In this document: in pieces, positions 579 through 19,833 of the stretch
Layout: every line of letters begins with the position of its first letter
Position numbering within the stretch: the first letter of the stretch is position 1
Virus record (IMG/VR): IMGVR_UViG_3300045988_130630
From: a virus
Length of the DNA stretch: 22,319 nucleotides
Reading direction: 5' to 3' (one strand)
Program-made: the position numbers and the translations under genes
The notes under the pieces: model-generated
What the model saw: only the letters and a program-made list of their open reading frames with translations
Told to the model about the DNA's origin: nothing
Databases searched by the model: none

Positions 579-607
579 ATTATATAATATTTTTTTTATA
601 AAGTCAA
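579..607 (-). promoter_or_regulatory. Sigma70-type promoter TTGACT-N17-TATAAT, member of the repeated 45-bp promoter family, upstream of the tRNA-Leu/His pair
   Basis: -35 as rc of 602-607, -10 as rc of 579-584, spacer exactly 17. Confidence 0.7.
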
Positions 608-644
608 AAGGGCCGATGTAAAGTATATTCACTTTACATCGGCC
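598..644 (-). terminator. Rho-independent terminator after the AAA+ ATPase gene
   Basis: Perfect inverted repeat ggccgatgtaaagt/actttacatcggcc (611-644), followed on minus by CTTTTGACTTTAT. Confidence 0.65.
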
Positions 645-650
645 GTCGCG

Positions 651-1790
651 TTAATAAAGATATTGTTCAAGAGTGTTTGCGACCTTAGTTAAAACAACAG
701 ACTTAATTACGCGCTCATTTTTAGCCTTTTCAATAGCTTCCTTACGCTTTTCAGCATCAGTAATCGTCCAAAAGTCATCAGGATCAATGTAAACTTCAAC
801 CTTTTTCGGATCAGCTGTAATCATACCCTTTTCAATCTTAATCGAATCAGGAGTCAAGGCATAACGAATAGTCTTACTATCTGAGGCATAACCATCATAC
901 CATCTTTGATGATTGGTATTAGGATTGTTAAACAAATTAACTGAAGCACCATAGGTATTATATACATCACCATTTACCGTAGTAATAGTGATATTGAAAC
1001 GAACATTGGAAGTCTGAGAGATATTAAGGTCTTCAAGAGTTTCTGCCACACCATAACCCTGATTAAGTTCAAAAGCAATCGCTCGAAGATAATCATAAGT
1101 CATATTAACAGTGCGAGAAAAATTCACAATATCCTTAATACCATCTGCGTATTTAGGTTTAACTTTATCAGTCAAATACTCAACGATCTCTTCCTCAGTT
1201 GGGAAAGTAATCTTAAAATGATAATGGAAACGACCAGGTCTATTCAAAAGATAAGTGCTAAGTCGATCAACTTCATTACAAGTAATGATAAAAAGCTTCT
1301 TACCATTATCAAGACCATCAAAAAGAGAAAGCATTTCTTCCTGCGGAGAGGGACCCGCATGGTCGTCAGAGTTATTAGAGAAATTCTTTTCAAACTCATC
1401 AAAAATAATTACGACTTCTTGCTCGATACTGGAAATAAAATCTGCGATACCAGGCATATAAGTATTAGCCAAAAGGACAGGATATCCGTTTTCAATAGCG
1501 TGATGAGAAAGAATACGAGCAAACAATGACTTACCAATACCCTTCTGACCACTTAAAATAACACCAAGATTACGGTCTGAATACTTAAAAGAATTAAGCA
1601 CCTTATTGACTTTAACTTCGTGATTACCATAAATTTTTTCCTCATTGACCGCAAGATCTGGACGAGAAGAAAGATAAAAACCTGCCATCTTACTAAAGCA
1701 GACTTCAAAAGACATAAGCGGAAGTCGCTTATAAGTCTTAACGTCCTCGCCATAAATCTGATAGCGAGAACCAGCGTTTACAATATTCAT
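651..1790 (-). CDS. AAA+ family ATPase
   Basis: 379-aa ORF; Walker A GQKGIGKS, Walker B VVIIFDEFE, sensor-2-like LNRPGRFHYHF; RBS AAGAGGA; TAA stop. Confidence 0.9.
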   Translation of the reverse strand: MNIVNAGSRYQIYGEDVKTYKRLPLMSFEVCFSKMAGFYLSSRPDLAVNEEKIYGNHEVKVNKVLNSFKYSDRNLGVILSGQKGIGKSLFARILSHHAIENGYPVLLANTYMPGIADFISSIEQEVVIIFDEFEKNFSNNSDDHAGPSPQEEMLSLFDGLDNGKKLFIITCNEVDRLSTYLLNRPGRFHYHFKITFPTEEEIVEYLTDKVKPKYADGIKDIVNFSRTVNMTYDYLRAIAFELNQGYGVAETLEDLNISQTSNVRFNITITTVNGDVYNTYGASVNLFNNPNTNHQRWYDGYASDSKTIRYALTPDSIKIEKGMITADPKKVEVYIDPDDFWTITDAEKRKEAIEKAKNERVIKSVVLTKVANTLEQYLY

Positions 1791-1817
1791 ACTTAATCCT
1801 CTTAATTTAAAATTTAA

Positions 1818-1908
1818 TGGCGAAGGAGAGAGGATTCGAACCTCCGGGCCCCAAATGAGGCCAACACCTTAGCAGGGTGCCGCATTCAACCAGCTCTGCC
1901 ACTCCTTC
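1818..1908 (-). tRNA. tRNA-Ser (anticodon GCT), class II, CCA encoded
   Basis: Acceptor GAAGGAG/CTCCTTC, anticodon loop CTGCTAA, long variable arm, T-arm GGAGG-TTCGAAT-CCTCT. Confidence 0.75.
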
Positions 1909-2000
1909 ATAATATATAAATAGAATAATTTACTGCTTAAACAGATGATATCCTCGTTTAAGCCATACCACACCCTCACCCAACACCTCAATTATTCTAT

Positions 2001-2237
2001 TTATTTACACCTATATATAATTAGCTTAGGCTTAATACTATATCCACAATAACTACGCCAAGTGCGATAATTACTAAAAATATAATATTTTCTATCAGGT
2101 TTAATATTACCAAATAAATTTAAAACTCTCAATCCTTGCTTATAATGAGAAGTTTTATTATTCACTTGGTAATTGGCCCAATCAAGAATTTCTTGACCGC
2201 TAAAACAAGGATTTTTATAACTTAAAATATTTTTCAT
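2001..2237 (-). CDS. Hypothetical small protein (78 aa)
   Basis: ORF with strong RBS AGGAGG 7 nt upstream; TAA stop. Confidence 0.55.
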   Translation of the reverse strand: MKNILSYKNPCFSGQEILDWANYQVNNKTSHYKQGLRVLNLFGNIKPDRKYYIFSNYRTWRSYCGYSIKPKLIIYRCK

Positions 2238-2313
2238 ATTCTACCTCCTCTGCTTTTCTGGACTTGGAACCAGCCTATGGTAGCATTAGGTAGGCGACCG
2301 CACTTATCGTTCG

Positions 2314-2379
2314 CTAGGACAAAACTCGCGCTCATCGCCAAAGATCAAATCATCGACATCTTTAAACATATCAGACAAT
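2314..2379 (-). CDS. Candidate 21-aa micro-ORF (MFKDVDDLIFGDEREFCPSER), leader-peptide-like
   Basis: ATG 9 nt downstream of AAAAAAGGAGG; TAA stop; sits ahead of a structured, tRNA-T-arm-like region at 2263-2313. Confidence 0.3.
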
Positions 2380-2646
2380 CCTCCTTTTTTATTTATTTTT
2401 ATGAAACAAAATAGAGAGTAGAAAAACAATTCATTTCTATGGAAGTGAAAGAAAACAACAATCTATATATCAAACGAAAGGGGAAATCAAACAGAAAGAT
2501 AAGTAAGAAAATGAACTAGATGTAAAAGACTCTCTCTATTGTATAGTCTTTTGTTTCTATATATTTAAATATATAGAAGAGTAGCCTTTCTAACAGGCAT
2601 CCCAACAGCCTCGAGCAGCAAAGAGGTTCCTCATTTGTTGGTCTTT

Positions 2647-2722
2647 TGGTGGGCGGAGACAGAATCGAACTGCCGACGCTAGGATCTTCAATCCTACGCT
2701 CTACCAGCTGAGCTATCCGCCC
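2647..2722 (-). tRNA. tRNA-Phe (anticodon GAA), CCA encoded
   Basis: GGGCGGA/TCCGCCC acceptor, GCTC-AGCTGGTA-GAGC D-arm, loop TTGAAGA, T-arm GGCAG-TTCGATT-CTGTC. Confidence 0.85.
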
Positions 2723-2936
2723 ATATTATTTATATTGCTACGATTCCCGATTCTCCACGTAGTCATTCTTCCTTTAAAACTGACTAAAAGAATGTGATAT
2801 TTTATTTATCGTACTACATCAACAATATAAATAGAACAAGACGCTATAAACAATCTTAAGCATATGTATTTTGTACATTGATGTTTTAAAGTTTGCTGTT
2901 AGCGTCTTTGTTATTCAAAAAGAAAGGAAAGATAAA

Positions 2937-3140
2937 TTATGCGTTCGCAGGTTCCGCGTTCTTTGGTCTGCGGAACTTTACATAACGCTCACCATCATAT
3001 CGGGACATCCAAATGATTGTGCCATCCTTAAAATGGAAATCATAAGTAAAATCCTTATCCTGTTCATCAACCTGATGGCAAAAGCCCTTACCGTACTTCT
3101 TAGAATAAACCTTATCGCCGGGCTTAAACTTAAACTTCAT
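2937..3140 (-). CDS. Hypothetical small protein (67 aa)
   Basis: ORF with RBS AAGGAG; TAA stop. Confidence 0.5.
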   Translation of the reverse strand: MKFKFKPGDKVYSKKYGKGFCHQVDEQDKDFTYDFHFKDGTIIWMSRYDGERYVKFRRPKNAEPANA

Positions 3141-3185
3141 TTAGATATCTCCTTTTGGATTATTTTAATTTACAAGACACAAATG

Positions 3186-3257
3186 AAATATTTGTTGGAA
3201 TTGAACCAACTACAATTTGTTTAACAGACAAATACTCTACCAATGAGTTAAAATACT
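3186..3257 (-). tRNA. tRNA-Asn (anticodon GTT), no CCA encoded
   Basis: Acceptor AGTATTT/AAATATT (one G-U pair), D-arm ACTC-ATTGGTA-GAGT, anticodon arm TTTGT-CTGTTAA-ACAAA, T-arm GTTGG-TTCAATT-CCAAC. Confidence 0.75.
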
Positions 3258-3338
3258 TTCAATAGAAAATGATTGCTGTGTGTGCCTTTATTACTGTGAT
3301 ACCTCTTAAAAGAGGGCTTACGGCGTTACGCCTAATGT

Positions 3339-4118
3339 TTATATGTTTTTCCATTCATCATCAGTGTATAAATTTATAATTTTTTTTGTATTAGGTAAAT
3401 TATAAGAAATACACCATTTTCTAATGGAATTATCACTTACATGATATATATTCGCGATAGAAGTAAAACTTTTATTACGAATCAATTTTTTTAATTCATC
3501 ACGAGAAGGTCTTTCAATTTTTCGATGTTCTTTAGCAGAACATTTCTAACATTTTTGACCTTTTCCGCTCCACTCTCCACCACATATAGGACAAACTTTT
3601 TTTAAAAGTTTTTTCTCTTCTTCTGGTTTATTTTTATCAAAACGAGAATAATGTAAAGGATAATTTAATTTTTCATTAAACCAAGTTCTTCCAACATTTA
3701 TATCTCTAATAGTATCTTTACTAACTTTATATTTTTTAGCTAATTCCGAATGATTAACTACACCTAACTTATCATTAATTAAAATATTTTGAATATCTTG
3801 AACTTCCTAATAATTTAATTTTTGATAAATTACGCGATAATCTCCACCTATTGTCTAATTATACTCTGGTTTATAATAATCAATCCAATAAATTTCTCTA
3901 CTATTTAGATTATCAATTTCACATTCTTCTAACACTTCAAATATAAAATTAGAAACACCATATTTTCTGAAACTTTGATATAAGGGATAATTATAGCTTT
4001 TACTCTTTTCATCTTGGGAACTATATATATGATTTTCCCAACGTTCTGCTATATTTCTTGACTATCCAATATAACAATGATTATTTATTTTATTAGTAAT
4101 TTTATAAATTCCTATCAT
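3339..4118 (-). CDS. GIY-YIG free-standing homing endonuclease carrying 4 in-frame TAG codons (at 4062, 3855, 3807, 3546)
   Basis: RBS AAGGAG + ATG at 4118; N-terminus GIYKITNKINNHCYIG-TAG-SRNIAERWENH matches the GIY-YIG motif; C-terminal CPICGG...KC-TAG-KC zinc finger; single coherent frame ending in TAA at 3339. Confidence 0.8.
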
Positions 4119-4201
4119 ATTACCATCTCCTTACACTATAATTAAAATTTTATTTAAGATAATTATAATTTTTCGACCTCGAAAGTATTTAGGTGATGAT
4201 A

Positions 4202-4274
4202 TGGTTGCGGTCGGGCGATTCGAACGCCGTTTTTGGCTTATGAGGCCAACGAGCTACCTTTGCTCCACCCCCGC
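4202..4274 (-). tRNA. tRNA with anticodon CAT (Met or Ile2), CCA encoded
   Basis: D-arm GAGC-AAAGGTA-GCTC, anticodon arm TTGGC-CTCATAA-GCCAA, T-loop TTCGAAT; acceptor stem has mismatches. Confidence 0.6.
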
Positions 4275-4276
4275 AA

Positions 4277-4352
4277 TGGTCGGTCAAATTAGAATCGAAC
4301 TAATATCCCTTGTCTTATGAGAACAATGCTCTGCCAATTAAGCTATTGACCG
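4277..4352 (-). tRNA. tRNA with anticodon CAT (Met or Ile2), CCA encoded
   Basis: Acceptor CGGTCAA/TTGACCG, D-arm GCTT-AATTGGCA-GAGC, anticodon arm TTGTT-CTCATAA-GACAA, T-arm ATTAG-TTCGATT-CTAAT. Confidence 0.8.
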
Positions 4353-4512
4353 AAAATGGGATAGATATAATATTCGCGACCATTATATCTATTGGACTTT
4401 CTAACCCATCGTCCCAAAATTCTTAATAGACCTCATCAAATGGCCAACTTTTGTAGAGGCTTTTGTGCGACCACCTGCGCACTTACATAGACATAAGAAT
4501 GATGCCAACGTA

Positions 4513-4590
4513 TGGCGACCCAGGCGGGGCTTGAACCCGCGGTCTTAGCCGTGACAGGGCTACGTGATATTCCAACTTCACTACTGGGCC
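4513..4590 (-). tRNA. tRNA-Asp (anticodon GTC), CCA encoded
   Basis: Acceptor GGCCCAG/CTGGGTC, D-stem GTGA/TCAC, anticodon arm TAGCC-CTGTCAC-GGCTA, T-arm GCGGG-TTCAAGC-CCCGC. Confidence 0.8.
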
Positions 4591-4593
4591 ATA

Positions 4594-4671
4594 TGGTACT
4601 CCTGGTGGGATTCGAACCCAACGACTCTAGCGTGAAAGGCTAGTGACTTAAGCCCACTTGTCGACAGGAGC
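4594..4671 (-). tRNA. tRNA-Glu (anticodon TTC), CCA encoded
   Basis: Acceptor GCTCCTG/CAGGAGT (G-U at pair 1-72), 3-bp D-stem with long D-loop, anticodon arm CTAGC-CTTTCAC-GCTAG, T-loop TTCGAAT. Confidence 0.65.
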
Positions 4672-4739
4672 ATGTATATTACTTTTTGTTAAAGAAGAAG
4701 TATAACTCCTCCAATTATTGTTTAACTAATTAAATTAGA

Positions 4740-4816
4740 TGGTGGCCTCGGCCAGAATCGAACTGACATTATTAGATTGAGAGTCTAATTTCCTAATCCT
4801 TTTAGAAGACGAGGTC
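4740..4816 (-). tRNA. tRNA with anticodon CTC (Glu-type), CCA encoded
   Basis: Acceptor GACCTCG/CGAGGCC (one mismatch), anticodon arm TTAGA-CTCTCAA-TCTAA, T-arm GTCAG-TTCGATT-CTGGC. Confidence 0.6.
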
Positions 4817-4820
4817 ATAT

Positions 4821-5069
4821 TTAAGCACATCTATCATAATCTTGATTTTTGTGCTTTTGTTTTCGCTTAAATGAGCCTTTACCTTTCTTCGCAGGAACTT
4901 TAAATCCTCTGCGCCGAAACAATTGAAGATATTCATTAAGTTCTTCTTTGTTCTTTTTCATATAACTTTTATTCACGGTATTCATCCTCATCTTCATAAA
5001 GGGAAAGATCCTGATAAGCAGCATATTCATCACTCTGAATCTCGCAAGCATAGCTTTCATAGTAATCAT
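4821..5069 (-). CDS. Hypothetical small basic protein (82 aa, K/R-rich C-terminus)
   Basis: ORF immediately downstream of promoter copy 5111-5139; weak RBS. Confidence 0.4.
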   Translation of the reverse strand: MITMKAMLARFRVMNMLLIRIFPFMKMRMNTVNKSYMKKNKEELNEYLQLFRRRGFKVPAKKGKGSFKRKQKHKNQDYDRCA

Positions 5070-5110
5070 TATACATAATTTAAATCTTCTTTTCTTAACT
5101 TTCTATAAAT

Positions 5111-5139
5111 ATTATATTATATTTTTTATAAAATGTCAA
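5111..5139 (-). promoter_or_regulatory. Sigma70-type promoter TTGACA-N17-TATAAT (repeated promoter family)
   Basis: -35 rc of 5134-5139, -10 rc of 5111-5116. Confidence 0.7.
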
Positions 5140-5256
5140 AAGATTAAAAGACCAACCAAAAAGCGATATTTGTTAACGATGGTCGCCACTCCACCGCCGT
5201 CAATATTCATAAACACTTACCATTTCTACACTAACCTACTAATTAAAGGAGGTGAC

Positions 5257-5344
5257 TGGTGCTTCGAGAGAGACTTGAACTCTCACCATCCATTCGGATA
5301 ATCGGGTTTGAGCCGATCGCGTCTGCCAATTCCGCCATCAAAGC
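5257..5344 (-). tRNA. tRNA-Leu, class II (anticodon CAA), CCA encoded
   Basis: Acceptor GCTTTGA/TCGAAGC, 3-bp D-stem, anticodon arm ATCGG-CTCAAAC-CCGAT, variable-arm hairpin ATCC-GAAT-GGAT, T-arm GAGAG-TTCAAGT-CTCTC. Confidence 0.75.
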
Positions 5345-5354
5345 ATAACTAAGA

Positions 5355-5479
5355 GGATTTTTAAGAAGAACCCTCAAAACTTCTTTCTAATCATCTAATT
5401 GGATTTTTAAGAAGAACCCTCAAAACTTCTTTCTAATCTAATGGAAGTTTTAAGAAGATCTTCCAACTTCTTTCTAATC
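5355..5479. repeat. Three tandem copies of a 46-bp unit, each holding a hairpin AAGAAG-N12-CTTCTT; third copy degenerate
   Basis: Direct repeats at 5355-5392, 5401-5438 and 5443-5479. Confidence 0.7.
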
Positions 5480-5887
5480 TAAATCGCACTTTAGGGCGGC
5501 CGTCCCTCCGCGGCATCACGGTAAATATACTATAATTTTTTATCCAAAAAAAGGTTATAAGCCAAAAAGGGATAATTATTTAAGATATAATTATCAAGAC
5601 TACGCTAACTGCTCAAATTTTCTCTTCTTAGTGGGAAAAACTTTCTTAGCGCTGAAACCAAAATCACTATTAGCATTTTGTATATATATTATCTTATTGT
5701 ATATAAGTTTCATTAATATACCTTATCTATTATATCATTTAGTATATTGTATTAAGTTTTAATTAATAAGATAATATTTCTGGCTGCTTTTATCACCAAT
5801 CATATAATTGGTTATATTGGGCAATGCTCCCAAACTTGCGGTTTACTTAACCGCCGTGCTTACACTTTACACCATATAACCATATAA

Positions 5888-5966
5888 TGGTGGACCTCGT
5901 GAGAATCGAACTCACCTGATTTTCTGTGTGCAAGACAGACGACCACGCCATGCAGTCCCGAAGCCC
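5888..5966 (-). tRNA. tRNA-Cys (anticodon GCA), CCA encoded; atypical D-arm and a 7-nt variable region
   Basis: Anticodon arm TCTGT-CTTGCAC-ACAGA, T-arm GTGAG-TTCGATT-CTCAC, acceptor GGGCTTC/GAGGTCC with two G-U pairs. Confidence 0.55.
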
Positions 5967-6053
5967 GGAATGCGACTTATTTATGTATAGATGGAGTCGC
6001 CAACCACCTGCGTTCAAAGTCCGCAAGCCTTCAACGCATTCCCAGGGAGGGGT

Positions 6054-6130
6054 TGGTGCTGGAGAAAGGACTCGAACCTTCAGATTAATGATCCTAAATC
6101 ATTCGTCTATGCCAATTCGACTACACCAGC
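6054..6130 (-). tRNA. tRNA with anticodon 5'-UAG-3' (reads CUA, Leu-type) but class I architecture with a 5-nt variable loop; CCA encoded
   Basis: Acceptor GCTGGTG/CTCCAGC (one U-U mismatch), 3-bp D-stem GTC/GAC, anticodon arm AATGA-TTTAGGA-TCATT with G37, variable AATCT, T-arm GAAGG-TTCGAGT-CCTTT. Confidence 0.6.
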
Positions 6131-6149
6131 AAATAAAGAGTTTTATAAC

Positions 6150-6265
6150 CCACATCGCGAAGATTCGAACTTCGTCAACCGTTAGGACTCGAACCAACTT
6201 TTACTCTTTTGGATTCCCAGAACCCATAGCCTTGATTAATGTGAGTATAGCCACTACTTCACAAT
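6150..6265 (-). other. tRNA-like remnants: two T-arm-like hairpins with no pairing 5' acceptor strand
   Basis: The hairpins are CGAAG-TTCGAAT-CTTCG and GTTGG-TTCGAGT-CC(T)TAAC; no standard cloverleaf closes either one. Confidence 0.35.
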
Positions 6266-6370
6266 AAGTTTTACTTCGCTTCTTTATATTTAGTCGGGCG
6301 TTTTCCGCAAGCCACATATTCTTTCGACCAGTGGTAGTTTAAACTTATAAAATCCGTGTTAACGCCCCAA

Positions 6371-6447
6371 TGGCGGGAGAGATAGGATTCGAACCTATGA
6401 CATCTTGTTTAACAGACAAGCGCTCTAACCAACTGAGCTACACTCCC
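6371..6447 (-). tRNA. tRNA-Asn (anticodon GTT), second copy, CCA encoded
   Basis: Acceptor GGGAGTG/CTCTCCC, D-arm GCTC-AGTTGGTTA-GAGC, anticodon arm CTTGT-CTGTTAA-ACAAG, T-arm ATAGG-TTCGAAT-CCTAT. Confidence 0.8.
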
Positions 6448-6487
6448 ATAAAAGAAGGACTTTTTAAAATCCTTACTTTATATATTT

Positions 6488-6516
6488 ATTATATTATATT
6501 TTTTTTAAAAAATCAA
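6488..6516 (-). promoter_or_regulatory. Sigma70-type promoter TTGATT-N17-TATAAT (promoter family)
   Basis: -35 rc of 6511-6516, -10 rc of 6488-6493. Confidence 0.6.
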
Positions 6517-6574
6517 CTTTTCTCTTTTACCCAAGTTTTTTTATTTTCTTTTTCTTTCTTCATCTTATATAAAT

Positions 6575-6603
6575 ATTATATAATATTTTTTATAAAATGT
6601 CAA
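6575..6603 (-). promoter_or_regulatory. Sigma70-type promoter TTGACA-N17-TATAAT (promoter family)
   Basis: -35 rc of 6598-6603, -10 rc of 6575-6580; the -35 hexamer contains the TGA stop of the gene at 6600-6782. Confidence 0.7.
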
Positions 6604-6782
6604 TAAGGTCTTTGAATTGGCATTAAATCATCTTCTGAAAGAAGCCACTTTTCACCATGTTCATCAAGGACTTCAATCTGATAATTTAATACTCGAATAA
6701 CAGTACATTTAAGATACTGTCTCCGATAACAACGACCGCGATAAGGGACAAAACAATAAGAATTACCAACTTCAATATTCAT
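6600..6782 (-). CDS. Hypothetical small protein (60 aa)
   Basis: RBS AAGGAG; promoter copy upstream at 6817-6845; TGA stop. Confidence 0.55.
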   Translation of the reverse strand: MNIEVGNSYCFVPYRGRCYRRQYLKCTVIRVLNYQIEVLDEHGEKWLLSEDDLMPIQRPY

Positions 6783-6816
6783 TATTTATTTTCTCCTTTC
6801 TCAACTTTCTATATAT

Positions 6817-6845
6817 ATTATATTATATATTTTTAATAAAATCAA
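6817..6845 (-). promoter_or_regulatory. Sigma70-type promoter TTGATT-N17-TATAAT (promoter family)
   Basis: -35 rc of 6840-6845, -10 rc of 6817-6822. Confidence 0.6.
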
Positions 6846-6873
6846 AAAAGTTCTTTTTGTTTAAAATATTAAA

Positions 6874-6956
6874 TGGCACCAGGGGTACGAGTCGAACGCA
6901 TTACCACGAGATTTGGAGTCACGCCCCAGTCCCTCCGGGATTAAGGTTCCCCTGAT
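6874..6956 (-). tRNA. tRNA-Trp-like (anticodon CCA) with about 7 extra nt in the 5' half; CCA encoded
   Basis: 3' half is canonical: anticodon arm CGTGA-CTCCAAA-TCTCG, T-arm ATGCG-TTCGACT-CGTAC, acceptor 3' CCCTGGT-G-CCA. The 5' acceptor ATCAGGG pairs, but the D region is too long. Confidence 0.4.
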
Positions 6957-15354: not shown

Positions 15355-16947
15355 AGAAGTTCTTTGATTTGGGTTAGTGCCATTAACCCAAGAAACAAAT
15401 TCCTTTTCAGTGATGTCAAAAAGGTCTCTACCCTTTTTAGTAAGAGTTTCCCCATCAACATAATAATTAGAGCGCCAACCGTCTCTTTCTTCTTCAATTT
15501 CACCAGTGAAGAAGGTTTTTACTTTTTTATCTCCACAACAATCCCAACAAATATCCGCATAGAATCCAACTGGCTTCTTTTGGAATCGAAGGCGGATTTG
15601 CTTCATATCATCATAATCTTTACGAACTTCACAACAAGGACAAACTTCTGTGCTTTCGTCATAACAATAAGCACAATAAGTTTTTCCATCGACATTATAA
15701 GTGTCATCGACATAAACAATATCGCCACACTTATCGCACTTTACTGCACCCGAGCAACTCGGACAGATAGTCATTTCTGCGTTATTCTCTCTATCATCGA
15801 AGAGAGAATCATCAAGAAGCTCTCCGCAACACATACACTCAGATTCACCCGAGTAGTTAAGATCAATATTTTCATCCGTAGGGATTTTGGTGGAAACATA
15901 AGCATTATGATCTGAGTAGATATCGTTATACATAAAATTGGTATCAAGATTGAAGTAAATACTTCTATCAAGCTCACCAATAATGTTATTGCTATAATTA
16001 TGAATCTGATTCAAATACTTGGTATAAGGGCCAAAGCCAAGATTCTGTTCAGCGAGCTTCTTGATCCAAGCAAGACAAATACTTTCAAGGTTATCATTAC
16101 AATAAGGATACCCTTTAATGCCAAGGATAAGGCTTTCATCTACAATGAAAAGTTCACGCCAGCGCTTGCTATTCCACATCACAGGCTTACCAACCTTATA
16201 CCAAATTTCCATGTCCTTATCAGATTTAAGATAAGCCTCAAGGATAATGGGAGAATTCATCATTTCAACGGTTCCCTGACGATATTCGCCACCACCATTC
16301 TGCCATCTCATACAAGAATCCCAACCGCAATTATTATCACTCATAGTGATATAATCAAGAGGGTGAACAGAAAGACAGAGTTCACCAGAAATATTTTTCT
16401 GATTAAGGAACTGAGAATGAGCGATACGGAACTTTTCATAAACATCGCGGTCAATCTCCAAAATATCACTCAGCTTACCAAGCATCTTACTAAGCTTCAT
16501 ACCCTTATTAATCATAAGAGTTTTATTATTGTAAGTGAATTTAAAAGGTTCACCATCATAGATGTTAGACATTAAAGGTTCAACATCCAAAAGATTTGCC
16601 AAATTAAAATACTGAGTATTAGAGATGGTTGTTTTAAGATAAAGATCTCTTACCTTATTATTAAAGGTATCTCGGAATTCATATCCATCACCATTTCTAC
16701 CGAAATAATCATAAAAATCCTCACTCATCTCTTCATAAGAACGAGAATAACTTACCTTACGAGAAATGATAAGATTATCTCCCAACATCTTATAAAGATT
16801 CTGCTTATTATAAGCCCAAAAGCGGAGAATGTAGTCGAGAGATGCCTTCATATCGGAGCTATCTCCGCCAAGACCCGCAAAATTGCGGATATACCCTTCA
16901 ATCTTTTCGCAATCTTCTTTGGAAAGGAGCTCAAATAAATTAGCCAT
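15343..16947 (-). CDS. Large hypothetical protein (534 aa), paralog of 11403-12857 (SVHPLD core, multi-CxxC C-terminus)
   Basis: Shared blocks: GELCLSVHPLDY~GTLCFSVHPLDF, GEYRQG~GEYRAG, MWNSKRWRE~LWNSKKWRM; the stop overlaps the promoter copy. Confidence 0.85.
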   Translation of the reverse strand: MANLFELLSKEDCEKIEGYIRNFAGLGGDSSDMKASLDYILRFWAYNKQNLYKMLGDNLIISRKVSYSRSYEEMSEDFYDYFGRNGDGYEFRDTFNNKVRDLYLKTTISNTQYFNLANLLDVEPLMSNIYDGEPFKFTYNNKTLMINKGMKLSKMLGKLSDILEIDRDVYEKFRIAHSQFLNQKNISGELCLSVHPLDYITMSDNNCGWDSCMRWQNGGGEYRQGTVEMMNSPIILEAYLKSDKDMEIWYKVGKPVMWNSKRWRELFIVDESLILGIKGYPYCNDNLESICLAWIKKLAEQNLGFGPYTKYLNQIHNYSNNIIGELDRSIYFNLDTNFMYNDIYSDHNAYVSTKIPTDENIDLNYSGESECMCCGELLDDSLFDDRENNAEMTICPSCSGAVKCDKCGDIVYVDDTYNVDGKTYCAYCYDESTEVCPCCEVRKDYDDMKQIRLRFQKKPVGFYADICWDCCGDKKVKTFFTGEIEEERDGWRSNYYVDGETLTKKGRDLFDITEKEFVSWVNGTNPNQRTSLIF

Positions 16948-16992
16948 ATCTTATCAACCTCTTTTTAATATCTTTCTTAACTTTATATATAT

Positions 16993-17021
16993 ATTATAAT
17001 ATATTTTTTTATAAAAATAAA
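16993..17021 (-). promoter_or_regulatory. Promoter-family copy with a weak -35 (TTTATT-N17-TATAAT)
   Basis: -10 rc of 16993-16998; the module is conserved, but the -35 overlaps the terminator T-tract. Confidence 0.45.
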
Positions 17022-17053
17022 GAAAGCCCTTTGCGGTCAATCAAAGGGCTTTC
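17011..17053 (-). terminator. Rho-independent terminator after gene 17077-18435
   Basis: Inverted repeat gaaagccctttg/caaagggctttc, followed on minus by TTTATTTTTAT. Confidence 0.7.
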
Positions 17054-17076
17054 TTGCGAAAGGGGTTTTATTATAT

Positions 17077-18435
17077 TTACTTACAAAGATTACCCATGAA
17101 CATGAGCGGAAGAAGATCATCCGCGTTCTTGGAGTCCTTCATAAGGAAATACATCATCATAGGATTCTTAGAGAAATCCATACCACTCTGACCACCCATC
17201 ATAGAGAGCATCAGCATGGTGTTCATGTCGAACTCACCACTATTCTCACTCATCATGAGGAAGGGGAGCATATTGCCGAACGGATTCTCTACACTCGGCG
17301 CATTCTCAGGACTCTTCATAAAAGAGTCAAACAGAGAAACGACACGAGTATAGAAGTTAAAGTTGAAGCAATTCTTCGTAGGAAGAATCTTCTTCTCCTC
17401 ACCGGCCTGCGGATCAACAACCGTAATACCGCTATCGCCAACCTCAATTACGAACATAGCCTTGCGGTTATGAACAATAACCATACCAGGGGCGATATCC
17501 TTGATGGCAACCGGCATCTTGTAAAGGAACTTACCGCCATCAAAGTTGAAGATATCAACGTCGATAATCTCCTTACTCTCAGGGTTGTAAGAAACCCAAG
17601 TGCCATTCGCGTTCTTCACGGCCAGGCCATACATAGACATACGAATGTTATCAGTGGTGCAGGGGCCAAAATCAAAATTAAACGCCTTCATTTTCTTATT
17701 TCCTTTCTTATTATCAACATTATTGTTAAATGTATTTTGTTCGTTCAAAACTTTATTGATTCGATCATCAATGTAATCGTTATCAATCATAGCGCACTTA
17801 TCTTCAATTGCGTCAATTCGACCACCAAGTGTAGTAGTAGCAATATTACCACCTGCAAAAATTGTATTAGAATCAATTGAAGCAACTTTTCCAGTTATAC
17901 AATCGCTATCAGGAATTACCGTAATAGGTGTAGTATTTAACTCTCCAAGAATCTTCTGGGCTTCTTCGTCAGAAATAGTCCACGCAGTGGAAAATTCTGT
18001 ATTCCACCCCGCACACACTTTGGTATAATCAAGGTCATCGCGGGTTTTGCTTATATCGTTATTCTTTTCAACAGTCTTCTTCGCTCTACGCATCTTATAT
18101 TCAAGAAACTTTTCCGAACATTCAATCGCATAATCATTTGTAAAAATATTACAAACATTATCAACTAAGTATTCACCAAAAGAACCATCAATACCGTCAG
18201 CAAAGAAAGAATTCATAATATAAGTATCAGGAAAAATATCAAAGAAAATTTTACCATTAAGGTCAGATTTGACAACAATCCTAACACTATTTTTAGTAGT
18301 CTTTAATTTACGCCAAAAGACGTAATCAAGCTTATGATACTTACCATCTTGAACTGCTTGACTAAATTTATCTAAGATTTTATCAAAGACATTAGGTGGG
18401 AATTTATAAGTTCCCATTACATTAGATTCAGCCAT
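17077..18435 (-). CDS. Hypothetical protein (452 aa) with a Met-rich C-terminal tail
   Basis: ORF with RBS GGAGA; TAA stop; terminator downstream. Confidence 0.85.
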   Translation of the reverse strand: MAESNVMGTYKFPPNVFDKILDKFSQAVQDGKYHKLDYVFWRKLKTTKNSVRIVVKSDLNGKIFFDIFPDTYIMNSFFADGIDGSFGEYLVDNVCNIFTNDYAIECSEKFLEYKMRRAKKTVEKNNDISKTRDDLDYTKVCAGWNTEFSTAWTISDEEAQKILGELNTTPITVIPDSDCITGKVASIDSNTIFAGGNIATTTLGGRIDAIEDKCAMIDNDYIDDRINKVLNEQNTFNNNVDNKKGNKKMKAFNFDFGPCTTDNIRMSMYGLAVKNANGTWVSYNPESKEIIDVDIFNFDGGKFLYKMPVAIKDIAPGMVIVHNRKAMFVIEVGDSGITVVDPQAGEEKKILPTKNCFNFNFYTRVVSLFDSFMKSPENAPSVENPFGNMLPFLMMSENSGEFDMNTMLMLSMMGGQSGMDFSKNPMMMYFLMKDSKNADDLLPLMFMGNLCK

Positions 18436-18589
18436 TTAGTCTCCTCTCTACTTCTCGTCGGATATATTCCATATCGCTATCCGTTAGAGTAAGCTCAGTC
18501 TGGAAAGTTGTCGCACCCGCACTAATTTCCTTGATAATTCTTTCAAGTTCCTCAGTGTGATTCGCATAACACATAAACAAATTATCCAT
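18428..18589 (-). CDS. Candidate small protein (53 aa), translationally coupled on both sides
   Basis: RBS GGTGGAG; its ATG overlaps the TAA of gene 18589-18864 (TAATG); its TGA overlaps the ATG of gene 17077-18435 (ATGGCTGA). Confidence 0.4.
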   Translation of the reverse strand: MDNLFMCYANHTEELERIIKEISAGATTFQTELTLTDSDMEYIRREVERRLNG

Positions 18590-18864
18590 TACTCCACCCA
18601 TTCTTTGGCATTTTCATCGTCCCAAAATAGAATAAACTCAGTATAAGCTGTACCATCCTTATCTTTCTCAATAAGGATATTTAGCATATCATTGTAGCCA
18701 CTATCTTCAGGATAATCAGCTTCCCAAATTTCACGAATACTATAATAATCCTCGTGCGGATTCGCCAAATGGGTGATAAATTCCTCTACGGTCCAAGTTT
18801 CAATAGGTGAACAAAACACCAAACCATGATACTCGCTATGAACCGCAATTACTCTCTTAACCAT
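18589..18864 (-). CDS. Hypothetical small protein (91 aa)
   Basis: ORF; 8-nt overlap with the upstream gene. Confidence 0.65.
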   Translation of the reverse strand: MVKRVIAVHSEYHGLVFCSPIETWTVEEFITHLANPHEDYYSIREIWEADYPEDSGYNDMLNILIEKDKDGTAYTEFILFWDDENAKEWVE

Positions 18865-19099
18865 TGTTATCCTCTCCTAATATATCGCAAATTGCCTGAT
18901 GACTAAACGTAATCTTCGCTCCAAGGTAAGGAACTGTTTTATCATCAGCAATAATAATTTCCACAAAAGCAATATCGTATTTATAGAAATACACAATACG
19001 CTTAATTGCTTCCAAATAATCAGAGGCTACCATTACACCCTGAAAATCTTCCTTTTCTGAGTCTACTGCATGAACATGAGCTATGTAGTGATACTCCAT
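18857..19099 (-). CDS. Hypothetical small protein (80 aa)
   Basis: ORF directly downstream of promoter 19133-19161. Confidence 0.7.
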   Translation of the reverse strand: MEYHYIAHVHAVDSEKEDFQGVMVASDYLEAIKRIVYFYKYDIAFVEIIIADDKTVPYLGAKITFSHQAICDILGEDNNG

Positions 19100-19132
19100 A
19101 ATAAATAACCTCTTTTCTTATTTTCTATATAT

Positions 19133-19161
19133 ATTATATACTATTTTTTTAAAAATGTCAA
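19133..19161 (-). promoter_or_regulatory. Sigma70-type promoter TTGACA-N17-TATAAT (promoter family)
   Basis: -35 rc of 19156-19161, -10 rc of 19133-19138. Confidence 0.7.
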
Positions 19162-19168
19162 AAAGATC

Positions 19169-19453
19169 TTACCAACTACGACATACGAGAATACTTACAT
19201 AGTCAGTATCACAAAAGACCTTACGAAGCTCGGCATAAACACGATTCGCGTTAGCAAAAATTTCGCGCTCATCTTCATCAACAAGAGATAAATCTTCATC
19301 ATTGTTAATGAAATAAACTTCGGTATAGCTCCAATCACCAAGAATAACATCTATAACATCATCAATGTCATTCTCTGACCATTCAGGGAAAGTATCATGA
19401 AGCCAAATCCTGAATTGATTTCCATATACAATAGGTTTCAAAGTATAATCCAT
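19169..19453 (-). CDS. Small acidic protein (94 aa), tandem paralog of 19487-19771
   Basis: ORF; shares DEDEREIFANxNRVYAELRK with its neighbour. Confidence 0.75.
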   Translation of the reverse strand: MDYTLKPIVYGNQFRIWLHDTFPEWSENDIDDVIDVILGDWSYTEVYFINNDEDLSLVDEDEREIFANANRVYAELRKVFCDTDYVSILVCRSW

Positions 19454-19486
19454 AAAAAAAGTCCTTTCTTAACTTTTTATATTATT

Positions 19487-19771
19487 TTACCAATCGCAAC
19501 ATACAAGCAGGGTCTTGTAATCGGTATAGCAAAAGAATTTGCGGAGTTCCGCATAGACACGGTTCACATTGGCAAAGATTTCACGCTCATCTTCATCACA
19601 GGTAGATAGATCTTCATCATTGCCAATAAAATGAATTTCTTCATAATTACCATAATCAAGAAGGAATTCCACCATATCATTTACTTCATCCTCAGTCCAA
19701 TCAGGAAAAGTAGCACGAAGCCATTCAATAAACTGATCATAACGCACGACAGGCTTAGAAATATAAGTCAT
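19487..19771 (-). CDS. Small acidic protein (94 aa), tandem paralog of 19169-19453
   Basis: ORF downstream of promoter 19805-19833. Confidence 0.75.
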   Translation of the reverse strand: MTYISKPVVRYDQFIEWLRATFPDWTEDEVNDMVEFLLDYGNYEEIHFIGNDEDLSTCDEDEREIFANVNRVYAELRKFFCYTDYKTLLVCCDW

Positions 19772-19804
19772 ATAAAAAAAGTCCTTTCTTAACTTTCTAT
19801 AAAT

Positions 19805-19833
19805 ATTATATAATAATATTTATAAAAAATCAA
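19805..19833 (-). promoter_or_regulatory. Sigma70-type promoter TTGATT-N17-TATAAT (promoter family)
   Basis: -35 rc of 19828-19833, -10 rc of 19805-19810. Confidence 0.6.

What the first reader, a model, noticed from the sequence alone, without database searches (positions are those of the whole stretch)
579..19833. Twelve copies of a conserved roughly 45-bp promoter module, all minus-oriented, absent from the recoded late module
The module reads TTGACA/TTGATT-N17-TATAAT inside a conserved AT-rich context; its consensus on the minus strand is approximately CTTTTTGACATTTTATAAAAAATATTATATAATATATATAGAAAG.

Copies occur at 579-607, 5111-5139, 6488-6516, 6575-6603, 6817-6845, 7658-7686, 13847-13875, 14690-14718, 15326-15354, 16993-17021, 19133-19161 and 19805-19833. 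Each sits immediately upstream of a tRNA or a gene.

Conservation well beyond the two hexamers suggests UP-element or phage-factor recognition. None precedes genes 7694-10966, which use a different, unrecognised promoter class. That fits early/middle versus late temporal control tied to TAG recoding.
Basis: seen in the sequence. Interest (0 to 1): 0.7.

Follow-up and report, generated by a model that had tools for sequence, protein, structure and literature searches.

The report
Repeated host-type early promoters in a recoded phage
The twelve repeats are real, evolutionarily protected copies of a strong housekeeping-type (sigma-70/sigma-A) promoter cassette in a ~190-kb uncultured gut phage that reads TAG as glutamine. 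They head TAG-free genes and tRNA arrays and are missing from TAG-rich gene blocks, which is the ordinary early-promoter design of large phages with one modest twist.

Summary
All 12 sites are at the stated coordinates on the minus (gene) strand. TTGAY-N18-TATAAT gives 11 hits against 0.13 expected.

Eleven sites share an extended module of about 65 nt. The twelfth, 14690-14718, is only a generic TTGACA-17-TGnTATAAT promoter.

The module is under strong purifying selection in 88-97% identical relatives: the -10 shows 0% divergence and the -35 0.9%, against 12-14% in the flanks. Its extended consensus persists in much more distant relatives.

It is best read as a host-RNA-polymerase (sigma-A/sigma-70) promoter fused to a leader and Shine-Dalgarno sequence. 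Some copies are also fused to an upstream terminator.

In 67 kb of a close relative, 19 copies lie in TAG-poor or tRNA regions and none lies in 31 kb of TAG-rich blocks (tail fibres, endolysin, accessory cassettes).

The split is not clean:
- TAG-bearing homing endonucleases sit inside module-driven units.
- One gene with a TAG sits directly behind a copy.
- In relatives, the amber suppressor tRNA lies about 1 kb behind a top-scoring copy.
- The window's "late module" is a swappable accessory cassette, not a proven structural block.

The closest analogues are the early promoters of SPO1, kayvirus and T4. This is a new member of a known kind, of modest interest.

The parts
579..607 (-). Module copy, -35 TTGACT. 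Fused to terminator 611-644. Heads tRNA-Leu(AAG)/tRNA-His, 22 nt to tRNA 469-556. The extended module runs about 12 nt further 5' and about 25 nt further 3'.
   Evidence: (LOO 47 bits)
5111..5139 (-). Module copy, TTGACA-17-TATAAT. Heads small ORF(s) at 4821-5078 and the following tRNA array.
   Evidence: (LOO 57)
6488..6516 (-). Module copy, TTGATT. 40 nt upstream of tRNA-Asn 6371-6447. Downstream member of a tandem promoter pair.
   Evidence: (LOO 38)
6575..6603 (-). Module copy, TTGACA. The TGA stop of gene 6600-6782 lies inside the -35. Upstream member of the tandem pair.
   Evidence: (LOO 59)
6817..6845 (-). Module copy, TTGATT. 34 nt upstream of the ATG of gene 6600-6782 (TAG-free).
   Evidence: (LOO 64)
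7658..7686 (-). Module copy, TTGACA. 42 nt upstream of the odd tRNA 7545-7615. Its upstream edge (about 7697) is the downstream breakpoint of the variable cassette.
   Evidence: (LOO 62)
13847..13875 (-). Intermediate copy: TTGACA-17-TGnTATAAT with an A-run spacer. The -35 overlaps the last codons of gene 13865-14668. Heads the peptidase-like gene 12707-13813.
   Evidence: (LOO 33)
14690..14718 (-). Generic consensus promoter, TTGACA-17-TGnTATAAT, that does not share the extended module. 21 nt upstream of gene 13865-14668, which carries one in-frame TAG.
   Evidence: (LOO -0.4)
15326..15354 (-). Module copy, TTGATT. The TGA stop of gene 15343-16947 lies inside the -35. Heads gene 14837-15253.
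   Evidence: (LOO 58)
16993..17021 (-). Module copy of the terminator-fused subclass. The -35 TTTATT is formed by the T-tail of hairpin 17020-17055. Heads the 534-aa gene 15343-16947.
   Evidence: (LOO 59)
19133..19161 (-). Module copy, TTGACA. 33 nt upstream of gene 18857-19099.
   Evidence: (LOO 56)
19805..19833 (-). Module copy, TTGATT. 33 nt upstream of gene 19487-19771. Its near-palindromic core produces the only plus-strand PWM hit.
   Evidence: (LOO 58)
611..644 (-). Intrinsic terminator, 15-bp stem. Its T-tail runs into the -35 of copy 579-607.
17020..17055 (-). Intrinsic terminator, 14-bp stem, fused to copy 16993-17021.
14795..14823 (-). Intrinsic terminator, 13-bp stem, after gene 14837-15253 and about 75 nt upstream of promoter 14690-14718.
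11052..11081 (-). Intrinsic terminator, 13-bp stem, that insulates the recoded cassette from upstream transcription. Homology to several relatives ends at 11046.
7694..10966 (-). TAG-recoded cassette without any module copy. Three genes carry 4, 6 and 3 in-frame TAGs; two of them are glycine-rich-domain proteins (PF12810). Relatives hold a radical-SAM-like cassette here instead.

Best explanation
The repeats are copies of a compact expression cassette built around a strong housekeeping-type promoter. Unmodified host RNA polymerase holoenzyme (sigma-A/sigma-70 class) should recognise it as soon as the phage DNA enters a Bacillota-type host.

Anatomy, 5' to 3' on the minus strand:
- a short A-run followed by a T-run, which in some copies is the U-tail of the preceding intrinsic terminator;
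- the -35 hexamer (TTGACA or TTGATT);
- an exactly 17-bp, A/T-only spacer with an A6-8 run;
- the -10 hexamer TATAAT;
- an A/T-only discriminator (ATWTATA);
- a purine start about 7 nt after the -10;
- a purine-rich leader (AGAAAGTTAAGAAAGG) that supplies the Shine-Dalgarno sequence 25-45 nt before the start codon.

The copies start many short transcription units. These are TAG-free genes that the host's standard code can translate, and tRNA arrays. In close relatives one such array contains the amber suppressor tRNA(CUA).

Gene blocks rich in in-frame TAG (TAG = Gln) carry no copy. They must be reached by read-through or from another, unidentified signal, and they need the suppressor for translation.

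Shown: sequence anatomy, non-randomness, strand and position, purifying selection, anticorrelation with TAG-rich blocks.
Inferred: recognition by host RNA polymerase, transcription start sites, early timing, strength, and any causal link to the code switch.
For: Non-randomness:
- 11 pattern matches against 0.13 expected, all on the gene strand.
- The PWM separates the 12 sites from all other sequence.
- Leave-one-out scoring and an independent PWM from a distant relative each recover 11 of 12 sites, with nothing else on the gene strand.

Placement:
- All -10 boxes are non-coding, with 21-72 nt to the next gene or tRNA for eleven sites.
- Strong terminators lie directly upstream of three copies.

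Comparative evidence:
- Copies sit at orthologous positions, always on the gene strand, in 10 relatives. In eleven further loci the count is 68 on the gene strand against 1 opposite.
- Divergence among 88-97% identical relatives is 0.0% in the -10, 0.9% in the -35, 3.5% in the spacer, 2% at +1..+10 and 5% at +11..+25. The flanks, which are partly coding, show 12-14%.
- The same extended consensus is kept in about 70%-identical relatives and in L142.

Host type:
- Shine-Dalgarno motifs precede 26 of 29 genes.
- The nearest cultured relatives are Herelleviridae of Bacillota.

Relation to recoding:
- In 67 kb of relative 118866, 19 copies lie in 35.9 kb of TAG-poor or tRNA sequence and 0 lie in 31.2 kb of TAG-rich blocks. 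The probability of that under a uniform spread is about 7e-6, my calculation (0.535 to the power 19).
- TAG = Gln: of 34 distinct sense-codon replacements seen at TAG sites in relatives, 23 are CAA or CAG.
- The suppressor tRNA(CUA) scores 57.8 bits and lies about 1.05 kb behind a 70-bit copy, with no predicted terminator between.

Precedent:
- A kayvirus has 58 sigma-70 consensus early promoters and 12 late promoters without a -35 (PMC7698491).
- The 12 SPO1 early promoters also share sequence beyond the hexamers.
Against: - There are no transcript data, so start sites, strength and timing are inferred.
- Ten of the 12 window copies lack the TGn extended -10 that is common in Gram-positive promoters and present in the more distant relatives.
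- The leader block is also kept before tRNAs, where no ribosome-binding site is needed. Part of the conservation may therefore reflect copying of the cassette rather than function.
- The early/late split is not clean. TAG-bearing HNH and GIY-YIG genes, and gene 13865-14668, lie in module-driven units. A TTGACA-16-TATAAT site lies inside a relative's recoded fibre block.
- The gene-level association is only borderline: Fisher p = 0.025 and 0.053 with a crude gene caller.
- The replication-gene stretch of the relative has only one weak copy in 8 kb despite few TAGs. So absence of the module is not specific to recoded genes.
Confidence: 0.85

Rival explanations
1. The extended module is recognised by a phage-specified component. 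This could be a phage sigma factor with sigma-70-like specificity, a virion-delivered modifier of RNA polymerase (as T4 Alt favours T4 early promoters), or an activator or repressor binding the A/T spacer or the near-palindromic core. On this reading the conservation outside the hexamers is a recognition code that sets phage promoters apart from host ones.
For: - Spacer, discriminator and leader are conserved among paralogues and across distant relatives.
- Orthologous divergence in the spacer and at +1..+10 is only 2-3.5%.
- The core ATATTATATAATAT is palindromic in some copies, which gives a 35-bit reverse-strand hit.
- The whole clade shifted together from TGn to TWn before the -10.
Against: - The hexamers and spacing are a perfect housekeeping consensus, which needs no extra factor.
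- A/T-only sequence is palindromic by chance at high frequency.
- No phage sigma factor or RNA-polymerase modifier was found in the window: Pfam and PHROGs give mostly unknowns.
- Two functional-looking copies (13847, 14690) do without the shared spacer.
- Extended consensus is normal for host-polymerase early promoters of SPO1. By my recollection, not checked here, the same holds for T4 and T5.
Confidence: 0.1
2. The copies are primarily mobile or recombinogenic regulatory cassettes, terminator plus promoter, like the promoter-early stem-loop (PeSL) cassettes of T4-type phages. Their extended similarity would then come from copying and gene conversion, and their main evolutionary role would be as homology joints for swapping gene cassettes. 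This does not exclude promoter function.
For: - The variable cassette is bounded exactly by terminator 11052-11081 (homology ends at 11046) and by the upstream edge of copy 7658-7686 (homology resumes at about 7697) in several relatives.
- A hairpin-fused subclass with TTTATT as -35 recurs at several loci.
- The leader block is kept even before tRNAs.
- The tandem gene duplicate 19169-19453 / 19487-19771 carried part of the cassette with it.
Against: - Only 2-3 of the 12 window copies have an adjacent hairpin.
- Only one swap hotspot was seen.
- Orthologous copies are conserved in place rather than moving.
- Position-specific conservation peaks exactly on the -35 and -10, as expected from selection on promoter function rather than from recent copying.
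Confidence: 0.25
3. The sites are chance products of A/T-rich intergenic sequence, or non-functional low-complexity repeats.
For: - The window is 35% G+C, and loose sigma-70-like matches (9 of 12 or better) occur at chance frequency: 57 found against 49 and 44 expected.
- A loose version of the pattern hits many unrelated A/T-rich phage contigs.
Against: - 11 exact pattern matches against 0.13 expected.
- All copies are on one strand.
- Random windows never exceed 0.9 bits with an independent PWM.
- There is strong purifying selection centred on the hexamers.
Confidence: 0.01

Closest known systems
Early (sigma-A) promoters of the host-takeover module of Bacillus phage SPO1 (Herelleviridae)
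   Same: Both are a dozen closely spaced consensus housekeeping promoters with 17-bp spacing, each heading one or a few small early genes. Sequence is shared beyond the hexamers: in SPO1 this is an upstream AAAAAG, the spacer T(T/C)NCTAC and TGTGn before the -10, seen directly. The window's ATPase and its 534-aa protein have their nearest cultured relatives in Herelleviridae.
   Different: The extended sequence itself differs: the window PWM scores -17 to -44 bits on the SPO1 sites. The SPO1 promoters sit in the terminal redundancy in two divergent groups, whereas here all are co-directional and spread over tens of kb. Here many head tRNA arrays and the genome is TAG-recoded. The SPO1 middle and late sigma system (gp28, gp33/34; my recollection, not checked) has no identified counterpart here.
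Early and late promoter classes of Staphylococcus kayvirus vB_SauM-515A1 (PMC7698491)
   Same: The kayvirus has 58 early promoters with strong sigma-70 consensus (TTGACW, 17 bp, TATANT) driving most transcription units, each often following a terminator. Morphogenesis units lack them and use a different class. Homing-endonuclease genes sit inside such units.
   Different: The kayvirus early promoters carry the TRTGN extension, which most window copies lack. The kayvirus late box TGTTATATTA was not found upstream of the recoded genes here. The kayvirus is not recoded.
T4 early promoters and promoter-early stem-loop (PeSL) cassettes of T4-type phages (from my own knowledge; not checked in the library)
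   Same: Host-polymerase early promoters with a consensus that extends beyond the hexamers. Terminator hairpin plus early promoter units flank variable genes and are proposed to mediate modular shuffling. Compare the cassette hotspot bounded by terminator 11052-11081 and copy 7658-7686.
   Different: The host phylum and the sequence differ. Only a minority of copies here are hairpin-fused. Exchange at these joints is inferred from one hotspot only.
TAG-to-Gln (code 15) recoded gut phages, with recoding concentrated in late and lysis genes (bioRxiv 10.1101/2021.08.26.457843)
   Same: In-frame TAGs are concentrated in tail-fibre, endolysin and accessory genes, while many other genes are standard-code compatible. 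The phage encodes a suppressor tRNA(CUA).
   Different: That study contains no promoter analysis: the word 'promoter' occurs 0 times. This locus adds a promoter class that anticorrelates with TAG-rich blocks, and it places the suppressor tRNA behind a copy of that class.

Membership tests
Housekeeping sigma-70 / sigma-A promoter | -35 hexamer close to TTGACA | tested here: met
   TTGACA in 6 copies, TTGACT in 1, TTGATT in 4, TTTATT in 1.
Housekeeping sigma-70 / sigma-A promoter | -10 hexamer TATAAT at 17 +/- 1 bp from the -35 | tested here: met
   TATAAT with exactly 17 bp in all 12 copies. The -10 shows 0.0% divergence among orthologues.
Housekeeping sigma-70 / sigma-A promoter | Position and orientation: intergenic, co-directional with and shortly upstream of a gene or RNA gene | tested here: met
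   12 of 12 copies are on the gene strand. All -10 boxes are non-coding. The gap to the next feature is 21-72 nt, or 127 nt for the upstream member of the tandem pair. In eleven further relative loci the strand count is 68 against 1.
Housekeeping sigma-70 / sigma-A promoter | Transcription start 6-9 nt downstream of the -10; open-complex formation by host holoenzyme | not testable with these tools
   This needs 5'-end mapping or in vitro transcription. No transcript data are available.
Extended -10 (TGn) promoter | TG at -15/-14 | tested here: not met
   TG is present only in 13847-13875 and 14690-14718 and absent from the other ten copies. It is present in most copies of the more distant relatives. 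Positions -15 to -13 are the one variable spot of the spacer.
UP element (alpha-CTD site) | A/T-rich block at -40 to -60 resembling AAAWWTWTTTTNNNAAA, or the proximal AAAAAARNR | tested here: inconclusive
   Only a short A-run (about -48 to -43) followed by a T-run abutting the -35 is shared. This is clearer in L142 (AAAAATCTTAAT). Nothing is conserved upstream of about -50. In some copies the T-run is a terminator tail.
Bacteroidota-type promoter (TTTG / TAnnTTTG) | -33 TTTG and -7 TAnnTTTG upstream of genes | tested here: not met
   1 match against 0.97 expected, on the non-gene strand inside a tRNA. 26 of 29 genes have Shine-Dalgarno motifs.
Kayvirus-type late promoter | Long -10 box TGTTATATTA without a -35, upstream of morphogenesis genes | tested here: not met
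   No exact or one-mismatch match lies in the expected position before the recoded cassette. The only near match is TTTTATATTA, after the terminator upstream of one fibre-block gene in a relative.
PeSL-like mobile regulatory cassette (T4-type) | Terminator stem-loop directly fused to an early promoter | tested here: inconclusive
   Fused in 579-607 and 16993-17021, and in further copies in relatives (m118370 1216, 4318; L065 5407, 6345). Most copies have no hairpin.
PeSL-like mobile regulatory cassette (T4-type) | Copies coincide with breakpoints of gene-cassette exchange | tested here: inconclusive
   One hotspot was found, with breakpoints at 11046 and about 7697. No genome-wide test was possible.

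The most novel reading that the evidence does not exclude
The module is the transcriptional half of a two-layer timer.

In this reading, host polymerase fires the cassettes at once. This produces the standard-code early proteins and the tRNA arrays, including the amber suppressor that sits at the border of the recoded tail-fibre block. Only the build-up of that tRNA then licenses translation of the TAG-rich fibre, lysis and accessory genes, which carry no module of their own.

Terminator-module pairs would in addition serve as the homology joints at which recoded accessory cassettes are exchanged between genomes.
Probability: 0.25. Interest if true: 0.55.

Novelty: new member of a known kind. 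Interest (0 to 1): 0.3.

Why it matters
The finding gives an uncultured, TAG-recoded, roughly 190-kb phage clade a concrete and testable transcription map: which units host polymerase can start, and which blocks cannot be started that way. As far as the one study I read shows, it is sequence-level promoter evidence bearing on the published idea that stop-codon recoding separates early from late expression.

It also adds a point that model has to absorb. In close relatives the suppressor tRNA appears to be under the early-type promoter class.

It supports a Bacillota/Mollicutes-type host over a Bacteroidota one, and it supplies a compact strong promoter-plus-RBS cassette that could be tested as a part. 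Otherwise it is the expected design of a large virulent phage.

Tried and rejected
- Megablast of half the window against GenBank phages found no match. Only protein-level links to Herelleviridae were found.
It could not be used as a genome-wide map, and its 40-55-bit PWM scores largely reflect the pattern itself. I walked along one relative with protein queries instead. This reached 67 kb, about 35% of the genome. The 73-178 kb part, which presumably holds capsid and tail genes, was not seen.
- I searched for a second (late) promoter class. The kayvirus box TGTTATATTA was not found in the right places. Inspection by eye of the regions upstream of TAG-rich units showed small hairpins and A/T-rich boxes but no convincing shared motif.
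- Scoring the SPO1 early promoters with the window PWM gave negative scores. The architecture is analogous but the sequence is not homologous.
- A gene-level Fisher test of 'module-proximal' against 'TAG-free' was only borderline (p = 0.025 and 0.053) and rests on a crude ORF picker. The segment-level contrast is the stronger statistic.
- I considered TAG = Tyr, because the suppressor has a long variable arm and resembles the neighbouring tRNA-Tyr anticodon arm, and because of one q/Y paralogue position. I rejected it: TAG sites are replaced in orthologues mainly by CAA or CAG.
- Host inference from the DUF5052 lipoprotein gave only a MAG contig that is the phage itself, in a bin labelled Mollicutes. 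This is weak evidence.
- The Rfam search found nothing bearing on the module.

Full report
**What the window is**

The 22.3-kb window is 35% G+C, and every gene and tRNA is on the minus strand. It carries 16 tRNA calls, 14 of which Rfam confirms.

Several genes are open only if TAG is read as sense:
- 10412-10966, with 4 TAGs
- 8983-10395, with 6
- 7694-9001, with 3
- an HNH endonuclease, 6941-7426, with 3
- a GIY-YIG endonuclease, 3339-4118, with 4
- 13865-14668, with 1

Where relatives carry a sense codon at a TAG site, it is mostly Gln: CAA or CAG make up 23 of the 34 distinct replacements counted, so TAG = Gln.

Close relatives (88-97% nucleotide identity) are IMG/VR contigs of 160-197 kb. 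One of them, contig 126226, wraps from its end to its start across this region, so the genome is complete or circularly permuted at about 193 kb. No GenBank phage matches at the DNA level. At the protein level the nearest cultured phages are Herelleviridae of Enterococcus and Bacillus, with the ATPase at about 42% identity.

**Checking the observation**

All twelve coordinates are right. TTGAY-N18-TATAAT gives 11 hits, all on the minus strand, against 0.13 expected. The twelfth site has TTTATT as its -35.

A 59-nt PWM scores the twelve sites at 28-69 bits and all other positions below 5 bits. The exception is a plus-strand shadow of the near-palindromic copy 19805-19833.

Because that PWM was built from the same sites, I repeated the test in two ways.
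- Leave-one-out scoring gives 33-64 bits for eleven sites but -0.4 for 14690-14718.
- A PWM built only from a distant relative (L142, ATPase 52% identical) recovers eleven of the twelve and nothing else on the gene strand. Random windows never exceed 0.9 bits.

So the window holds eleven copies of an extended module plus one generic perfect promoter (TTGACA-17-TGnTATAAT).

All -10 boxes fall in the 16.8% of the window that is non-coding (chance 5e-10). They lie 21-72 nt from the next start codon or tRNA. The exception is 6575-6603, which forms a tandem pair with 6488-6516.

**Anatomy of the module**

I pooled 20 paralogous copies from the close clade, 9 from L142 and 18 from about 70%-identical relatives. 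The shared module runs from about -48 to +25:
- a short A-run;
- a T-run abutting the -35;
- TTGATT or TTGACA;
- a 17-bp A/T-only spacer, TTTT(A/T)(A/T)AAAAAATAT..;
- TATAAT;
- ATWTATA;
- then (A/G)AAAGTTAAGAAAGG.

The last block contains the Shine-Dalgarno sequence. The start codon follows 25-46 nt after the -10 in most protein-heading copies.

Three copies use the TGA or TAA stop of the upstream gene inside or next to the -35.

One subclass is fused to an intrinsic terminator whose T-tail forms a degenerate TTTATT -35. In the window this is 16993-17021 with hairpin 17020-17055. Copy 579-607 is likewise fused to hairpin 611-644 but keeps TTGACT. Further fused copies occur in relatives.

The more distant relatives carry TGn before the -10. 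The window's clade has mostly lost it, and positions -15 to -13 are the only variable spot in the spacer.

**Evidence of function**

Copies occupy orthologous positions in ten relatives, always on the gene strand. In eleven further loci the count is 68 on the gene strand against 1 opposite, and that one is the shadow.

Aggregated over the twelve sites and 7-14 orthologues each, divergence is as follows:

| Region | Divergence |
|---|---|
| Flanks (partly coding) | 12-14% |
| 10 nt before the -35 | 3% |
| -35 hexamer | 0.9% |
| Spacer | 3.5% |
| -10 hexamer | 0.0% |
| +1 to +10 | 2% |
| +11 to +25 | 5% |

Conservation peaking on the two hexamers is what a working promoter predicts. I therefore read the module as a housekeeping (sigma-A/sigma-70) promoter cassette used by host RNA polymerase. 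Start sites, strength and timing are inferred.

**Host type**

Shine-Dalgarno motifs precede 26 of 29 genes. The Bacteroidota promoter pattern is not enriched: 1 match against 0.97 expected. A DUF5052 lipoprotein gene is present. A 164-kb contig carrying the same phage region sits in a MAG labelled 'uncultured Mollicutes bacterium'.

**Relation to recoding**

The window's module-free block 7694-10966 is preceded by a strong terminator (11052-11081) and followed at once by copy 7658-7686. Its products are two glycine-rich-domain proteins (PF12810) and one protein of unknown function. In six relatives the block is replaced by a radical-SAM-like cassette, with breakpoints at 11046 and about 7697. 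It is therefore a swappable accessory cassette and not a demonstrated late structural module.

To test the general claim I walked 67 kb along relative 118866. Contig coordinates and counts are:

| Contig segment (kb) | Module copies | Content | TAG per kb coding |
|---|---|---|---|
| 6.0-10.7 | 0 | accessory cassette | 3.1 |
| 10.7-20.1 | 8 | 18 tRNAs | 2.3 |
| 20.1-36.4 | 0 | 19 mostly tail-fibre-like genes, 15 with TAGs | 2.6 |
| 36.4-54.8 | 10 | 30 genes, 2 with TAGs | 0.3 |
| 54.8-65.0 | 0 | RiPP-like/radical-SAM cassette; endolysin-like gene with 8 TAGs | 2.0 |
| 65.0-73.1 | 1 (weak) | replication genes | 0.3 |

The 2.3 TAG per kb in the second segment comes from 3 of its 11 genes. The GIY-YIG homing-endonuclease homologue (4 TAGs) and a 285-aa gene (2 TAGs) are among them.

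So 19 copies lie in 35.9 kb and none lies in 31.2 kb of TAG-rich blocks. The probability of that under a uniform spread is about 7e-6 (my calculation). Gene-level tests with a crude ORF picker are borderline, at p = 0.025 and 0.053.

**Complications for a clean early/late reading**

TAG-bearing genes sit inside module-driven units. These are the HNH gene right after copy 7658-7686 and its tRNA, the GIY-YIG gene within the tRNA array, and gene 13865-14668, which lies 21 nt behind promoter 14690-14718.

A perfect TTGACA-16-TATAAT follows a terminator inside the relative's fibre block.

The replication stretch is TAG-poor yet nearly module-free.

Most notably, the amber suppressor tRNA(CUA) lies just beyond the window's left edge in relatives that are 98-99% identical to the adjacent window sequence. 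It scores 57.8 bits and has the anticodon loop CUCUAAA. It sits about 1.05 kb downstream of the highest-scoring copy (70 bits), with no predicted terminator between. It also lies directly upstream of the recoded fibre block, whose first large gene ends at the next strong terminator. The tRNA that enables TAG decoding therefore appears to be under the early-type promoter class.

No second promoter class could be defined.

**Comparison with known systems**

The kayvirus vB_SauM-515A1 has 58 sigma-70 consensus early promoters (TTGACW, 17 bp, TRTGN-TATANT) and 12 late promoters (TGTTATATTA, no -35) concentrated in morphogenesis units (PMC7698491).

The SPO1 host-takeover module shows twelve consensus promoters with their own extended consensus: upstream AAAAAG, a shared spacer and TGTGn. 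I read these directly from the genome. The window PWM scores them negatively, so the similarity is one of design and not of descent.

T4 early promoters and PeSL cassettes are a further analogue, from my own knowledge and not checked here.

The study proposing that recoding regulates late and lysis genes contains no promoter analysis.

**Verdict**

The promoter interpretation is well supported. The tie to temporal control and recoding is supported as a strong anticorrelation but not as a clean switch, and the 'late module' label for 7694-10966 is unproven. This is a new member of a well-known kind, phage early promoters recognised by host polymerase. Two modestly interesting additions are the suppressor tRNA lying behind a module copy and the terminator-module pairs bounding a cassette hotspot.

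Noticed in passing
window 2242-2292 (-): Sub-threshold but significant match to the type-P1 twister ribozyme: 41.1 bits against a gathering score of 67.2, E = 4.7e-6 for the whole window. The core nucleotides are kept and one optional stem is missing. Its 3' end overlaps the Shine-Dalgarno sequence of gene 2001-2237.
   Followed up: partly
window 7545-7615 (-): A tRNA-like gene directly behind module copy 7658-7686 has a 6-nt anticodon loop (CTTCAA; ARAGORN reports the anticodon as 'tc'; Rfam tRNA 46 bits). Relatives keep it with 'tt' or 'tc' variants. Its function is unknown.
   Followed up: partly
window 6860-6950 (-): Looks like tRNA-Trp(CCA) carrying an insertion: anticodon loop CUCCAAA, an acceptor stem, and a 3' end ...GGTGCCA. 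Neither ARAGORN nor Rfam calls it. Relatives have an ordinary tRNA-Trp(cca) at this place. The TAG-bearing HNH gene 6941-7426 lies between it and tRNA 7545-7615.
   Followed up: partly
L131 15957-16045, L132 15956-16045, L141 15138-15210 (relatives; about 4.3 kb beyond window position 1): Amber suppressor tRNA(CUA). In most relatives it carries a 17-nt variable-arm insertion (57.8 bits); in contig 118866 it is 73 nt. Orthologue codon replacement nevertheless indicates TAG = Gln.
   Followed up: partly
window 7697-11046, compared with L002/L003/L005-L008 from about 15900 and with L141 1-4680: A cassette hotspot. The glycine-rich-domain gene cassette of the window is replaced in several 90%-identical genomes by a cassette with two radical-SAM-like genes. 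Contig 119030 carries both cassettes.
   Followed up: partly
window 5355-5482: Three tandem copies of a 43-46-nt unit between tRNA genes. The predicted fold is no better than shuffled sequence, z = 0.42.
   Followed up: partly
window 19169-19453 and 19487-19771 (-): Tandem paralogous 94-aa genes, about 72% nucleotide identity. The downstream one keeps the leader and Shine-Dalgarno part of the module (AAAGTTAAGAAAGGAC) but not the promoter. Some relatives have only one of the pair.
   Followed up: no
L157 (CAMELE010000001.1, 164 kb): The same phage region, with the lipoprotein 93% identical at the protein level and 91% nucleotide identity overall, is the largest contig of a MAG labelled 'uncultured Mollicutes bacterium'. 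Either the phage genome was binned as bacterial, or this is a hint to the host.
   Followed up: no
relative contig 118866, 58.2-64.9 kb (L174, L187): A Cys-rich 234-aa ORF next to a TAG-bearing radical-SAM gene, which looks like a RiPP cassette. It is followed by an endolysin-like 433-aa gene with 8 in-frame TAGs and a holin-like gene. None has a module copy upstream.
   Followed up: no
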